This document shows positions 7,924-14,071 of a stretch of DNA of 54,262 bases, piece after piece (position 1 is the stretch's first letter; every line of letters begins with the position of its first letter). This DNA is from Candidatus Uhrbacteria bacterium (GTDB lineage Bacteria > Patescibacteriota > Patescibacteriia > UBA9934 > GWF2-40-263). Position numbers and translations under genes: made by a program. A model generated the notes under the pieces. It worked only from the letters and a program-made list of their open reading frames with translations, made no database searches and was not told where the DNA came from. The stretch spans positions 1-54,262 of the forward strand of contig JACQSF010000002.1 of assembly GCA_016206085.1 (NCBI GenBank), in the 5' to 3' direction.

Positions 7924-9006
7924 TCAAGCATGACGCGTATAAAATTGCCCGCCTTCGTGTGTGATTCCTCCCTTCATTTCCATGAGCGTGAGGGTGCTCA
8001 TGAGCTTGGAAGTGGGAAGTTGGGTGGAACGGATGAGTTCGTCTACATGCAGAGGCAGGCGTGAAAGTCGTGACCAGATGAGGGTCTCTTCTTCGTTTGC
8101 TGGTTGGTACGCGCTCACGGGCGCGGGCATCGGTTCGATCCCGAAGATGTCCTCGGGTTTGGTGACCGGTGTGGCGCCGTTTTTAATGAGTTCATGAGGG
8201 CCTTCCGAGAGAAGGGAATGGATGGGGCCGGGTACGGCGTACACGTCACGATTACTGTCCATGGCCGACCGTGCGGTGATGAGCGAACCAGACTTGATTC
8301 CCGCTTCCACAACCAAGGTGCCGTGACACAATCCTGCAATGATACGGTTACGCATGGGAAAGTGTTGCTTTAAGGGTGGGGTGCGTAACGGGAGTTCAGA
8401 GATCAAGGCTCCTCCCTGTGCGATGATGCGAGACGCGAGTGCTCGATTGTGCGAGGGATAAATACTTTCATGATCCACACCTGAGCCCAGGATCGCGAGC
8501 GTCGTGCCGTCTGCGCGTAGTGCCGCATCATGGGCGGTTGCATCGATGCCATACGCGAGTCCGCTTACGATCACGACGCCCGCGCGAGCAACGGGTTCGA
8601 TCAGCTCGTCTGTCACGCGCAGTCCATAGGGTGATGCGCTTCGTGAGCCGACAACAGCGAGATGTTTACGATTGGGATTAGGAAGTGCCCCACGTACAAA
8701 CAGCACGGCCGGAGGATCGTAAATCTGTTTGAGGAGCGGCGGGTAAATCTCGTCTTGAATCGTGATGGCTTGAACGCCATGGATCTCGAGTTCTCGGTAG
8801 AGCGAATCGGGATCGATGTGGAGACGTTCCTGCAGAAAGCGGCTCGCAATTTCAGGTTCGATTCCAGCCTCGGTGAGCGCGAGAGCACTTGCTCCAAAGG
8901 CATCCTCCATGGAGGGGAATCGTCGCGCGAGTCGTGAGATTCGCACTGCTCCAAATGGATGAAACGCGGTGAGTGCGACCCAGTAAGGACGATCAGACTC
9001 GGTCAT
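7924..9006 (-). CDS. dprA: DNA-processing protein DprA
   Basis: YPPLLKQIYDPP, AVVGSR, VSGLAYGIDA, FPMRNRIIAGL, SGSLITA; adjacent to topA. Confidence 0.96.
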   Translation of the reverse strand: MTESDRPYWVALTAFHPFGAVRISRLARRFPSMEDAFGASALALTEAGIEPEIASRFLQERLHIDPDSLYRELEIHGVQAITIQDEIYPPLLKQIYDPPAVLFVRGALPNPNRKHLAVVGSRSASPYGLRVTDELIEPVARAGVVIVSGLAYGIDATAHDAALRADGTTLAILGSGVDHESIYPSHNRALASRIIAQGGALISELPLRTPPLKQHFPMRNRIIAGLCHGTLVVEAGIKSGSLITARSAMDSNRDVYAVPGPIHSLLSEGPHELIKNGATPVTKPEDIFGIEPMPAPVSAYQPANEEETLIWSRLSRLPLHVDELIRSTQLPTSKLMSTLTLMEMKGGITHEGGQFYTRHA

Positions 9007-9599
9007 ACCTTACCTTTGTCATTGCGAGGAGACGAAGGCGACGAAGCAATCTTTCGAAGGATTGCTTCCCGCCACGCTTCGCTCGCGGCTTCGGCGGCGC
9101 TCGCAATGACACCAGCTAATGCCTTCTCTTCCGCCTCTGTCCATCTCCCCAATACGAATTCATCCAATGGAATGTCTGGATGCGTCGGTCGTCCAATGCC
9201 AACCCGAATGCGAGCCACGGCGGTTCCTTTCGGAAGAGATTCGATAATTGACTCCATACCACGGTGACCAGCACTGCTTCCACTTTCTTTGTAGCGAACA
9301 TTGCCAAAGGGGAGATCAGCGTCGTCATACACAACCAGGACATCGTTGATCGTGACCGGGTACTTGGACATTACAGCACCAAGTGATCGACCGCTGGCGT
9401 TCATGAATGTTTGCGGTTTCACAAGGAGCACTCGCTCTCCCTCGATCAATACTTCGGCGATGTCTGCCTCAAGTGAGCGTTTCGAGGAGAACGCACCTTC
9501 GTAGCGCTTGGCGAGTTCATCCAACACCAAAAAGCCCACGTTGTGACGTGTCTTTTCATACTCTTTGCCAGGATTCCCAAGGCCGAAGATGGCTTTCAT
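9003..9599 (-). CDS. pth: Peptidyl-tRNA hydrolase, with a palindromic element encoding most of its C-terminal tail
   Basis: GLGNPGKEYEKTRHNVGF, KPQTFMNASG, VVYDDADLP, SAGHRGM, RIRVGIGRP. Confidence 0.96.
   Translation of the reverse strand: MKAIFGLGNPGKEYEKTRHNVGFLVLDELAKRYEGAFSSKRSLEADIAEVLIEGERVLLVKPQTFMNASGRSLGAVMSKYPVTINDVLVVYDDADLPFGNVRYKESGSSAGHRGMESIIESLPKGTAVARIRVGIGRPTHPDIPLDEFVLGRWTEAEEKALAGVIASAAEAASEAWREAILRKIASSPSSPRNDKGKV
9018..9110. mobile_element. 93-bp RPE-like palindromic element inserted in frame in pth
   Basis: Terminal IR GTCATTGCGAG/CTCGCAATGAC, internal IR GAAGCAATC/GATTGCTTC; exactly 31 codons. Confidence 0.8.
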
Positions 9600-13447: not shown

Positions 13448-13476
13448 TTGAAAAGGGGATAGGAGCGTGATAACGT
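13448..13476 (+). promoter_or_regulatory. Putative sigma70 promoter driving GIY-YIG + tRNA-Val
   Basis: TTGAAA-17 nt-TAACGT with a TGn extension; only 7 nt separate the GIY-YIG stop from the tRNA. Confidence 0.55.
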
Positions 13477-13489
13477 TTCGCTCGCGGAT

Positions 13490-13738
13490 ATGTTCTTTGT
13501 CTACTTGTTACAAAGCGAGGTCGATGGAACGTACTACATCGGGAGAACCAACGATGTTTCTCGTAGACTCGACGACCATAATAGTGGTCAATCTTTTTAC
13601 ACAAAGAGAAAAAGACCCTGGAGGTTGGTCTACTACGAGGCTTACGATAATGAGGATCTCGCTAAGGAGAGGGAGAAGAAATTGAAGAAGAGAGGATCCA
13701 GTTACTACGGTCTTCTTGAAAGGTTGGGAAGAAAATAA
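13490..13738 (+). CDS. Stand-alone GIY-YIG nuclease (82 aa)
   Basis: FVYLLQS...YYIGRT...RRLDDHNSG...YTK..RPWRLVYYE...AKEREKKLK. Confidence 0.92.
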   Translation: MFFVYLLQSEVDGTYYIGRTNDVSRRLDDHNSGQSFYTKRKRPWRLVYYEAYDNEDLAKEREKKLKKRGSSYYGLLERLGRK

Positions 13739-13745
13739 AATAACA

Positions 13746-13822
13746 GGGCGTGTAGCTCAGTTGGTTAGAGCGCTGTCCTCACACGACAGAGGTCAGAGGT
13801 TCGAGCCCTCTCACGCCCACCA
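13746..13822 (+). tRNA. tRNA-Val(CAC)
   Basis: GGGCGTG acceptor, CTGTC-CT-CAC-AC-GACAG anticodon arm, AGAGG-TTCGAGC-CCTCT T arm, CACGCCCACCA. Confidence 0.96.
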
Positions 13823-13824
13823 AT

Positions 13825-13856
13825 AAAAGTATCTCAAAAATTGGGATATTTTTTTT
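13825..13856 (+). terminator. Putative terminator after tRNA-Val
   Basis: AAAAGTATCTC-loop-GGGATATTTTTTTT. Confidence 0.5.
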
Positions 13857-13877
13857 GGATAAGCTCAGTTGGTTAGA

Positions 13878-13901
13878 TCCCCCCGCTCGCGAGCGGGGGG
13901 A
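13878..13901. mobile_element. 24-bp perfect palindrome TCCCCCC-GCTCGCGAGC-GGGGGGA
   Basis: Flanked by a TAGA direct repeat (13874-13877 and 13902-13905) that occurs once at this site in the intact tRNA. Confidence 0.85.
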
Positions 13902-13931
13902 TAGAGCGCTGTCCTCACACGACAGAGGTCA

Positions 13932-13955
13932 TCCCCCCTTTCGCGAAAGGGGGGA
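13932..13955. mobile_element. 24-bp perfect palindrome TCCCCCC-TTTCGCGAAA-GGGGGGA
   Basis: Flanked by a TCA direct repeat (13929-13931 and 13956-13958) that occurs once at this site in the intact tRNA. Confidence 0.85.
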
Positions 13956-14071
13956 TCAGAGGTTCGAGCCCTCTCACGCCCACCAAACCAGACGCTTCCG
14001 GGCGCCTGTTTTGTTTGTCACCGCCGTCCCTTGCCCCATGTCCATTTTCTTGATACGCTTGGAACATCTTT

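What the first reader, a model, noticed from the sequence alone, without database searches (positions are those of the whole stretch)
9018..9110. Palindromic RPE-like element has become the C-terminal helix of peptidyl-tRNA hydrolase
Seen: a 93-bp (31-codon) element with terminal IR GTCATTGCGAG/CTCGCAATGAC and internal IR GAAGCAATC/GATTGCTTC is read in frame as VIASAAEAASEAWREAILRKIASSPSSPRND at the end of pth. The pth-dprA overlap (9003-9006) is preserved. Established: Rickettsia palindromic elements insert in frame in housekeeping genes, and one such family starts GTCATTGCGAG as I recall it. Inference: the element replaced the native last helix. Its first half (VIASAAEAA) resembles the usual Pth pattern, so this may be exaptation of selfish DNA in an essential enzyme.
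Basis: partly seen in the sequence, partly recalled or inferred. Interest (0 to 1): 0.75.

Follow-up and report, generated by a model that had tools for sequence, protein, structure and literature searches.

The report
Selfish hairpin repeat forms Pth's tail
A 93-base palindromic repeat of a known, widespread kind (the hairpin repeats that go with small Ssn/GIY-YIG nucleases) sits in frame at the end of the essential peptidyl-tRNA hydrolase gene of a Candidatus Uhrbacteria genome, where it encodes the last two-thirds of the enzyme's final helix in place of the native residues.

Summary
Window 9018-9110 is a nested palindrome with 11-12-bp outer arms and 9-bp inner arms. It is read in frame as codons 164-194 of pth, and the ATGA overlap with dprA is kept.

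It is not a coincidence. The 11-mer occurs 37 times in this 877-kb genome against about 0.4 expected, forming 16 paired elements. One of these encloses a 96-aa GIY-YIG gene. Homologues of that gene in more than 10 phyla carry the same flanking motifs. This is the published Ssn nuclease/SRM hairpin pairing (Chenal 2025), which matches the CGTC-tagged REP superfamily (Di Nocera 2013) that includes Rickettsia RPE-4 and RPE-6.

Seven congeners and 109 of 120 Pth homologues have a native tail (LPxIIDSAIEKIL...). Six other Uhrbacteria alleles carry the element at the same codon. AlphaFold models the element peptide as a continuation of the last helix.

Synonymous sites inside the element are far more conserved than in the rest of pth. 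Tail type is scattered on the Pth tree, which indicates recombination.

Verdict: a new member of a known kind, with a useful natural series of alleles. That the new tail works is inferred, not shown.

The parts
9018..9110 (-). Head-to-head dimer of CGTC-tagged hairpin repeats (Ssn-related motifs), translated in frame as Pth residues 164-194
   Evidence: The sequence and inverted repeats are shown. It is one of 16 paired copies in the genome. It is absent from pth in 7 congeners. It is present at the same codon in 5 other sequenced alleles.
9060..9110 (-). First arm in coding direction: GTCATTGCGAG + 31-nt variable part + GAAGCAATC. It encodes VIASAAEAASEAWREAI, the helix-forming part.
   Evidence: The arm subtype is shared with C8:42318R and C27:29618R and with a solo arm in G004:C23. 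It is 100% identical over 60 nt to the allele P0003. AlphaFold models a helix over 155-186 with pLDDT 97/91/80 for residues 161-190.
9052..9059 (-). Central loop of the palindrome (CTTCGAAA on the coding strand); with the neighbouring bases it encodes L-R-K
9018..9051 (-). Second arm in coding direction: GATTGCTTC + 14 nt + CTCGCAATGAC. It encodes (K)IASSPSSPRND, which is modelled as the end of the helix followed by a disordered tail.
   Evidence: The arm subtype GAG(A/C)CGAAGGCGAC is shared with C2 and C7. pLDDT is 80 then 64 over 181-198.
9003..9017 (-). Four native codons (KGKV) plus the TGA stop. They carry a Shine-Dalgarno-like AAGGTAAGG for dprA and the ATGA stop/start overlap.
   Evidence: All element-bearing alleles keep exactly four codons and the ATGA overlap after the element. 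That these codons serve as the dprA ribosome site is my inference.
9003..9599 (-). pth (peptidyl-tRNA hydrolase, Pth1 family), 198 aa
   Evidence: Pfam PF01195, E = 1.4e-57, residues 4-179. Foldseek matches solved Pth structures with TM about 0.8 over 172-193 aligned columns. It is the only pth match in the genome.
7924..9006 (-). dprA, whose start overlaps the pth stop
   Evidence: Pfam PF02481 and PF17782. The same gene order is found in relatives.

Best explanation
The 93 bp are a head-to-head pair of hairpin repeats of the CGTC-tagged REP / Ssn-related-motif kind. This is one of at least 16 such pairs in this Candidatus Uhrbacteria genome. The family's candidate partner nuclease is a 96-aa single-domain GIY-YIG protein, encoded inside one pair on another contig (C7:6370-6749).

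These repeats normally lodge just after genes. pth and dprA overlap, so there is no spacer between them. The pair therefore sits inside the last codons of pth, just upstream of the four codons that carry the dprA ribosome site. It removed at least six native codons (the MIDSAI-type core of the last helix).

It survives because it is a multiple of three bases, has no stop codon in this frame, and belongs to a particular arm subtype. In this frame that subtype encodes an Ala/Glu-rich amphipathic stretch (VIASA.EA.L) that mimics the native I-I-D-S-A-I-E-K-I-L helix. Ribosomes therefore read through it. The enzyme keeps a longer C-terminal helix plus a floppy 12-residue end, and still terminates at the ATGA overlap.

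The allele arose in Uhrbacteria and has moved among lineages by homologous recombination. The DNA of the element is kept, or refreshed, at the nucleotide level.

Shown here: repeat family, partner gene, absence in relatives, same-site alleles, excess synonymous conservation, recombinant alleles.

Inferred: the mobilising enzyme, that the new helix functions, and the order of events.
For: Repeat family:
- 37 exact copies of the 11-mer give 16 pairs of 67-380 bp. Most are intergenic and lie 6-20 nt from gene ends.
- The arm motif is patchy among relatives: 35 in this genome, 26 and 72 in two congeners, 0 in three others. The reversed control gives 0.

Partner gene:
- The GIY-YIG ORF lies in the loop of the C7 copy.
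- Of 80 homologues (55-67% identity, more than 10 phyla), 54 have both outer motifs within 200 nt.
- The literature describes Ssn nucleases as about 94-aa GIY-YIG proteins flanked by their hairpin repeats. It reports that GTC before the palindrome and C after it matter for cleavage and binding (PMC11893778).
- CGTC REPs form head-to-head dimers, lie near 3' ends of genes, are sometimes intragenic and encode 20-30 aa, and include RPE-4 and RPE-6 (PMC3733652).

Native state:
- Seven congeners and 109 of 120 homologues have LPxIIDSAIEKIL-type tails.

Same-site alleles:
- P0002, P0003, P0004, P0019 and P0021 carry the element at the same codon. DNA read for four of them (none available for P0021) shows the palindrome, then four codons and ATGA.

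Protein fit:
- Against a profile of native tails, element tails score +5 to +10.6 bits, where natives score 8.5-28. Shuffle p is 1e-4 and 1.5e-3.
- Other frames and arms of the genome's copies score -32 to +1, apart from one arm of the same subtype.

Models:
- The helix spans 155-186 here and 155-172 in a native allele. Both are high confidence through residue 180. Foldseek aligns up to 184-193 columns to solved Pth structures.

Evolution:
- Third-position identity in codons with the same amino acid is 47-62% in the pth core. Inside the element it is 17/17, 20/20, 25/27 and 18/20 (P = 3.6e-6 to 5.5e-3).
- Tail type is scattered on the core tree, and at least 3 changes are forced by well-supported branches. 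P0007 and P0008 have identical cores with different tails, and P0004 and P0010 are identical over their first ~104 residues.
Against: - No activity data exist for this Pth or for the nuclease.
- The AlphaFold alignments contain native helices in the same columns, which may favour a helix.
- The Pth C-terminal region is variable among bacteria (PMC11202043), and a T. thermophilus mutant lacking its C-terminal 16 residues has a solved structure (8x5u). The tail may therefore be merely tolerated.
- The arms do not fit the published SRM search pattern, and single arms fold only weakly.
- CDD cd10448 membership of the GIY-YIG protein could not be tested.
- A single origin followed by recombination cannot be told apart from repeated installation at one site.
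- No Ssn family member has been shown to mobilise its repeats.
Confidence: 0.8

Rival explanations
1. Neutral passenger. The repeat landed in a dispensable tail, and the encoded peptide is tolerated but does nothing for Pth. Only frame and the absence of stop codons matter, because translation must reach the dprA overlap.
For: - The C-terminal region of Pth is variable and flexible among species (PMC11202043).
- A C-terminal 16-residue deletion mutant of T. thermophilus Pth has a solved structure (8x5u).
- In allele P0003 the second arm has decayed while the frame is kept.
- Other unrelated small palindromes also occupy the pth-dprA junction in G001 and G002.
Against: - None of the full-length homologues lacks a helix-length tail after L161; P0046 (167 aa), with only 5 residues there, may be a fragment.
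- The resident arms are among the very few arm/frame combinations that score positive against the native helix profile.
- In the E. coli Pth complex with the tRNA acceptor-TΨC domain, helix alpha-6 contacts the TΨC minor groove (review PMC11202043).
Confidence: 0.3
2. Repeated site-specific installation. The element is inserted again and again at this exact codon by a homing-like or gene-conversion process, and was not inherited from one event.
For: - The same junction is found in lineages whose Pth is only 68-83% identical.
- Synonymous sites in the element are nearly invariant while the gene is close to saturation.
- Different dimers occupy the site: short arm versus long arm.
- The long arm subtype exists elsewhere.
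uvrA carries a copy here too.
Against: - The same loss of the native helix codons in all alleles is more simply explained by one event plus allele exchange.
- Recombinant pth alleles are directly visible.
- P0031 shows that an independent insertion landed at a different position, after the helix.
- No mechanism for site-specific insertion is known for this family.
Confidence: 0.15
3. Assembly or binning artefact. The repeat was wrongly joined into pth in a metagenome-assembled genome.
For: The genome is a 34-contig draft, 83% complete. Repeats often break or misjoin assemblies.
Against: - The element lies deep inside a 54-kb contig, with an intact reading frame on both sides.
- Element-bearing pth alleles occur in independent NCBI, ENA, JGI and Logan assemblies.
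Confidence: 0.02

Closest known systems
Ssn nucleases with NTS/SRM hairpin repeats (Chenal et al., Nat Commun 2025, PMC11893778)
   Same: - A single-domain GIY-YIG protein of about 95 aa is encoded between two inverted hairpin repeats that are also scattered through the genome.
- The repeats carry GTC just before the palindrome and C just after it.
- The palindrome starts with AT.
- The system is found across many phyla.
   Different: - The arms here read ATTGC...GCAAT with a 6-60-nt variable, often self-pairing insert, not an 8-bp ATTCCCGC stem. They fail the published SRM search pattern.
- The pairs form one long nested palindrome.
- CDD family membership and single-strand cutting are untested.
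- The paper does not describe in-frame copies that replace part of a protein.
CGTC-tagged REP superfamily, including Rickettsia conorii RPE-4 and RPE-6 (Di Nocera, De Gregorio and Rocco 2013, PMC3733652)
   Same: - A (C/T)GTC tag at one end.
- Head-to-head dimers lying close to the 3' ends of genes.
- A minority lie inside genes, encode 20-30 aa and are enriched in replication and repair genes. Here those genes are dnaX and uvrA as well as pth.
   Different: - The host is a Patescibacteria lineage, which is not among the five phyla listed for CGTC repeats.
- Stem and loop dimensions differ from families CGTC-1 to CGTC-4.
- pth is not in the paper's list of interrupted genes.
- The paper found no dedicated enzyme for these repeats.
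Rickettsia palindromic elements in protein-coding genes (Ogata et al. 2000 and 2002; Claverie and Ogata 2003; cited from memory and through PMC3733652)
   Same: Selfish palindromic DNA is inserted in frame in housekeeping genes and translated as part of the protein.
   Different: As I recall, RPE-1 insertions add extra surface segments. Here the element takes over native helix positions at a C-terminus and occurs as a polymorphic allele. I could not test sequence relatedness to RPE-1.
REP/RAYT 'REPtrons' (Nunvar 2010; Ton-Hoang 2012; cited in both papers above)
   Same: A dispersed hairpin repeat with a single-copy nuclease or transposase gene bracketed by inverted copies.
   Different: The enzyme class differs: a Y1 transposase with GTAG-tagged repeats there, a GIY-YIG nuclease with CGTC-tagged repeats here.

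Membership tests
Ssn / SRM system | Small single-domain GIY-YIG gene flanked on both sides by inverted copies of the genome's hairpin repeat | tested here: met
   At C7:6370-6749 the 96-aa ORF (Pfam PF01541, E = 1.2e-13) lies between GTCATTGCGAG..GAAGCAATC and GATTGCTTC..CTCGCAATGAC. 54 of 80 homologues in other phyla have both outer motifs.
Ssn / SRM system | GTC immediately 5' of the palindrome and C immediately 3' of it (needed for cleavage and binding in N. meningitidis SsnA) | tested here: met
   All 32 arms read GTC-ATTGC...GCAAT-C apart from one GGAAT arm. The requirement is taken from PMC11893778.
Ssn / SRM system | Fits the published degenerate SRM pattern HGTCWYN(0-2)YYVSBRHN(0-5)WNVSBRGN(0-2)RNCYNB | tested here: not met
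   Checked by eye against the pattern. After GTCAT the arms have TGCGAG, and G falls where the pattern requires Y-Y. The variable part (6-60 nt) exceeds the allowed loop.
Ssn / SRM system | Protein belongs to CDD cd10448 (GIY-YIG_unchar_3) | not testable with these tools
   No CDD models are available. NCBIfam gave only a sub-threshold hit.
Ssn / SRM system | Sequence-specific cutting of single-stranded DNA next to the hairpin | not testable with these tools
   This needs a biochemical assay.
CGTC-tagged REP superfamily | Short palindromic unit tagged at one end by CGTC (or TGTC/CCTC) | tested here: met
   In the window the tag is TGTC on both strands (9017-9020 and 9111-9108). CGTC and TGTC tags are seen in other copies and other phyla.
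CGTC-tagged REP superfamily | Stem of 8-9 bp starting with A-T pairs, loop of 4-5 nt, short unpaired tail | tested here: inconclusive
   The stem starts with AT, but only ATTGC/GCAAT (5 bp) is constant. The interior is variable, and single arms fold weakly (-1.6 to -9.8 kcal/mol, not better than shuffles).
CGTC-tagged REP superfamily | Many dispersed copies, mostly head-to-head dimers, mostly just downstream of genes | tested here: met
   There are 16 dimers plus about 5 solo ends. 12 of the 16 are intergenic and 6-20 nt from gene ends.
Rickettsia palindromic elements (RPE) | Palindromic repeat inserted in frame in protein-coding genes | tested here: met
   In-frame copies are found in pth, dnaX, uvrA and a reverse-transcriptase-like ORF.
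Rickettsia palindromic elements (RPE) | Sequence relatedness to a named RPE family | not testable with these tools
The only link is the published equation of RPE-4 and RPE-6 with CGTC REPs.
Pth1 peptidyl-tRNA hydrolase | Pfam PF01195 above the cut-off and the Pth fold | tested here: met
   194.9 bits against a cut-off of 27. Foldseek TM is 0.8 to more than 40 solved Pth chains. The invariant His19, Asp92 and Asn67 columns are present.

The most novel reading that the evidence does not exclude
The palindrome at the pth-dprA junction may not be a decaying passenger. It may be a DNA or RNA element kept under its own nucleotide-level selection. Possible roles are a single-strand recognition site for the Ssn-type nuclease that marks a recombination boundary next to the transformation gene dprA, or a hairpin that tunes dprA translation. 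Under this reading its arms are periodically overwritten from other genomic copies. Pth has meanwhile come to depend on the encoded peptide as the outer part of its tRNA-binding helix. The same bases would then serve a selfish element, a neighbouring gene and an essential enzyme.
Probability: 0.15. Interest if true: 0.75.

Novelty: new member of a known kind. Interest (0 to 1): 0.45.

Why it matters
Whether palindromic repeats translated inside proteins are junk or raw material for protein evolution has been debated since the Rickettsia RPE papers. Here a small, essential, easily assayed enzyme exists in nature in four forms:
- native tail
- short-element tail
- long-element tail
- native helix plus element

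This ready-made series could test by complementation and enzymology whether a selfish hairpin repeat can supply a working structural helix.

The finding also extends Ssn/SRM-type repeats, including in-frame copies in pth, dnaX and uvrA, to the ultra-small Patescibacteria. These genomes have overlapping genes and little intergenic space, which may push such repeats into coding sequence.

Tried and rejected
- **Rfam scan of 8800-9350.** It returned only chance microRNA hits.
- **Literature search by sequence strings and peptide motifs.** It found only unrelated primer matches. Searches for GIY-YIG with palindromic/RAYT terms gave mostly fungal mitochondrial papers.
- **Adaptive indels.** I considered that four single-base deletions relative to the C8 arm were changes made in pth to create a helical reading. 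I rejected this because the same long-arm subtype occurs outside pth in G004:C23.
- **Common descent with the native helix.** I considered that the element's first arm descends from, or was targeted by homology to, the native helix DNA. I rejected this because nucleotide identity is only about 50%. In the native sequences read, serine is coded TCN (TCC, TCT, TCG), whereas the element has AGC. The arm in P0004 is also identical over 27/27 nt to the C2 copy.
- **Strict SRM pattern.** The arms do not match it.
- **Rho-independent terminator.** None is predicted at the element.
- **Ogata 2002 RPE paper.** It is not held.
- **A second repeat type in the G004 dnaX linker.** No GTCATT[GC]C match was found, so I dropped it.

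Full report
**Observation**

On the + strand the window reads:
- GTCATTGCGAG (9018-9028)
- 14-nt variable part
- GAAGCAATC (9043-9051)
- TTTCGAAG
- GATTGCTTC (9060-9068)
- 31-nt variable part
- CTCGCAATGAC (9100-9110)

This is 93 nt. The outer inverted repeat is perfect over 12 bp.

On the minus strand it is codons 164-194 of pth (CDS 9003-9599, 198 aa from MKAIFGLGNPG). The encoded peptide is VIASAAEAASEAWREAILRKIASSPSSPRND, followed by KGKV and TGA. The stop overlaps the dprA start as ATGA at 9003-9006.

Pfam places the protein in PF01195 and the downstream gene in DprA.

**Not chance: a repeat family**

The 11-mer occurs 37 times in the 877-kb, 34-contig genome, where length alone predicts about 0.4. 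The hits pair up into 16 elements of 67-380 bp, plus about five solo ends. All have the same plan: outer 11-mer, variable part, inner 9-mer, loop, then the mirror image.

Most copies are intergenic and lie 6-20 nt from a gene end. Splitting the elements into arms shows a small set of arm subtypes that recur in different combinations.

- The arm that encodes the helix-forming half of the pth tail is of the same subtype as arms at C8:42318 and C27:29618. It also matches, with one substitution and one indel, a solo arm in a congener (G004:C23) that has a native pth.
- The other arm is of the C2/C7 subtype.

The whole 93 bp is therefore element DNA and not diverged native pth.

Among 40 relatives the arm motif is patchy: 35 copies here, 26 and 72 in two congeners, 0-2 in the other five congeners. 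The reversed-pattern control gives 0. In longer arms the variable part is usually self-complementary, with different sequences in different copies.

**What the family is**

The 380-bp copy (C7:6370-6749) carries a 96-aa ORF in its loop with a GIY-YIG domain. A scan of one genome per species found hundreds of relatives. The best 80 are 55-67% identical. They come from Cyanobacteria, Bacteroidota, Planctomycetota, Chloroflexota, Omnitrophota, Patescibacteria, Proteobacteria and others. In 54 of these 80, GTCATTGCGAG (at most 1 mismatch) lies upstream and CTCGCAATGAC downstream within 200 nt.

This arrangement is published in two papers.

- Chenal et al. 2025 (PMC11893778) describe the Ssn family. 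These are about 94-aa single-domain GIY-YIG proteins that cut single-stranded DNA a few bases upstream of a hairpin repeat (NTS/SRM, CGTCATTCCCGCG..GCGGGAATC). Their genes are typically flanked by those repeats. The bases just before the palindrome and the C just after it matter most.
- Di Nocera et al. 2013 (PMC3733652) earlier defined the same repeats as the CGTC-tagged REP superfamily. They noted head-to-head dimers, a position near 3' gene ends, and occasional in-frame intragenic copies encoding 20-30 aa. Such copies are frequent in replication and repair genes, and slightly more than 10% lie at ORF ends. They also equated R. conorii RPE-4 and RPE-6 with CGTC families.

The arms here have the TGTC/CGTC tag, an AT-initiated palindrome (ATTGC...GCAAT) and the trailing C. 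They do not fit the published SRM search pattern, and on their own they fold weakly. The full element folds strongly (z about -5). Rfam has no matching family. Earlier notes of this scan reached the same Ssn/SRM assignment for similar units elsewhere. I treat those as leads only.

**What happened at pth**

Names attached to the closest Pth homologues place the genome in Candidatus Uhrbacteria. All seven congeners in the genome collection lack the element in pth. Their tails read, for example...EEKALPATINSAIEKVLESLGRG and ...QIPSAIDSAIEKLV. In five of the seven the same ATGA overlap with dprA is present.

Of 120 homologues, 109 have a native tail with consensus L-P-x-I-I-D-x-A-I-E-K-I.

Compared with the shortest native type (LPAMIDSAIGKLV*, allele P0012), the element stands where six codons (MIDSAI) should be. 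The last four codons and the overlap remain. Those four codons contain a purine-rich stretch (AAGGTAAGG here, GAGGAG or AAGGA in other alleles) at the right distance to be the dprA ribosome site. That reading is my inference.

**The element-bearing form is an allele, not unique to this genome**

Five other Pth proteins, 68-83% identical, carry the element at the same codon and in the same frame:
- P0004: ...LPL|VIASASEAILRKIASSPSASRND|EESL
- P0002, P0019 and P0021, which are similar
- P0003, which has the same long first arm as this genome

DNA read for four of them shows the palindrome, then four codons, then ATGA. No DNA was available for P0021. In P0003 the second arm has decayed but the frame is kept.

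A sixth protein (P0031) keeps the native helix (VIMDSAIQILL) and carries a different dimer after it, read in another frame. This shows that independent insertions at this junction do occur. Other small palindromes occupy the junction in G001 and G002.

**Does the peptide stand in for the helix?**

A position-specific profile of the 109 native tails (13 positions after L-P) gives natives 8.5-28 bits. The element tails score +5.1 to +10.6, with shuffle p = 1e-4 for this genome and 1.5e-3 for P0004. The other reading frames and arm subtypes of the 15 short (non-ORF) genomic copies score -32 to +1. The one exception is an arm of the same subtype.

The resemblance is not by descent. Nucleotide identity is about 50%. 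The serine is coded TCN in the native sequences read and AGC in the element.

AlphaFold2 with 120 homologues gives mean pLDDT 93 and one continuous helix over 155-186. Block pLDDT is 97, 91 and 80 for residues 161-190, followed by a low-confidence end. A native allele modelled the same way has the helix at 155-172, running to one residue from its C-terminus. Foldseek aligns the model to solved Pth structures with TM about 0.8 over up to 184-193 columns.

In the E. coli Pth complex with the tRNA acceptor-TΨC domain, helix alpha-6 contacts the TΨC minor groove. The C-terminal region is otherwise variable among bacteria (PMC11202043).

Residues 155-163 of the helix are native. The element supplies the remainder and lengthens it by about 14 residues. 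The alignments used for modelling contain native helices in the same columns, so the models are supportive but not decisive.

**Evolutionary behaviour**

On a tree of the Pth core (residues 1-152), the six element-bearing rows need six changes, and well-supported branches force at least three. P0007 and P0008 have identical cores with different tails. P0004 and P0010 are identical over their first ~104 residues and differ after that. Homologous recombination within and next to pth is thus directly visible, and it can spread the allele.

Synonymous sites tell a second story. In codons with the same amino acid, third-position identity between this genome and the other alleles is 47-62% in the core. 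Inside the element it is 25/27, 20/20, 18/20 and 17/17 (binomial P = 7.6e-7 to 5.5e-3). A 60-nt stretch is identical to P0003 against 70-80% identity in the flanks.

The element's DNA is therefore either constrained at the nucleotide level, homogenised by conversion from other copies, or recently re-installed. I cannot separate these three.

**Other in-frame copies in this genome**

- dnaX residues 357-380 (VIASHAKQSTDLEIASVAELPRND). The copy lies in a hypervariable linker, where relatives have unrelated sequence of similar length.
- uvrA (SLRAPAKQSSKIASSPSAPRND).
- A reverse-transcriptase-like ORF.

All four intragenic copies are read so that the last arm gives ...IAS..PRND. One of the three frames at that end contains TGA.

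**Assessment**

The element belongs to a known family, and in-frame REP/RPE copies are a known phenomenon. Three things are particular here:
- The host is an ultra-small Patescibacteria genome with overlapping genes.
- The element substitutes for native helix residues at the C-terminus of an essential enzyme.
- A natural allelic series exists, with excess nucleotide conservation in the element.

Function of the new tail, the role of the GIY-YIG protein in spreading the repeats, and single versus repeated origin remain untested.

Noticed in passing
G000:C27:53619-53690 (within L122): A 72-bp copy of the same element is read in frame inside dnaX (residues 357-380, VIASHAKQSTDLEIASVAELPRND). It lies in a hypervariable linker, where six congeners have unrelated sequence of similar length.
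   Followed up: partly
G000:C2:10097-10163: A 67-bp copy lies in frame in uvrA (SLRAPAKQSSKIASSPSAPRND), 72 nt from a contig end.
   Followed up: partly
G000:C34:1355-1430: A 76-bp copy is read through inside a 358-aa reverse-transcriptase-like ORF (SSLRGGHRPTKQSSKIASVASLPRND). The ORF stays open although 76 is not a multiple of three.
   Followed up: no
L002:2030-2090 and L003:452-515 (pth-dprA junction of G001 and G002); also L118:1420-1680: Other, unrelated small palindromes sit at the same junction: GCAGGCTAAAGCCTGC giving the tail ...AAGFSPRPNAG, and GGGGCTAAAGCCCC giving ...GRG. They end pth early and open a spacer before dprA. The junction looks like a hot spot for palindrome insertion.
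   Followed up: partly
Proteins P0004/P0010 and P0007/P0008: Pairs of Pth proteins are identical over the N-terminal ~100-150 residues and then switch to different C-terminal halves or tails. These are mosaic alleles that indicate frequent homologous recombination in Uhrbacteria populations.
   Followed up: partly
window 9261-9263 (Pth residue R113): In the conserved G-H-N-G motif of Pth, the asparagine is replaced by arginine (AGHRGMES) in this protein and in the consensus of its 120 closest homologues. As I recall, this is E. coli N114, an active-site residue. It aligns to HNG in E. faecium Pth.
   Followed up: no
L121:1500-1560 (G004:C23) and G000:C23:41557-41628: The outer repeat CTCGCAATGAC contains ATG. 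In at least two places a long ORF can start at that ATG, so the repeat end may donate start codons or 5' extensions to downstream genes.
   Followed up: no
Loci L031-L110: The GIY-YIG protein has relatives of 55-67% identity in more than 10 phyla, with nearly the same flanking 11-mers. Many loci show extra empty hairpin pairs right next to the gene. This suggests wide horizontal spread.
   Followed up: partly
window 13448-14016: A second, distantly related small GIY-YIG ORF lies in this window (tblastn E = 8.6e-5 to the C7 protein). Earlier notes (e1-5229875, e1-5229876) describe it as lodged beside a tRNA gene with its own 24-bp palindromes.
   Followed up: no
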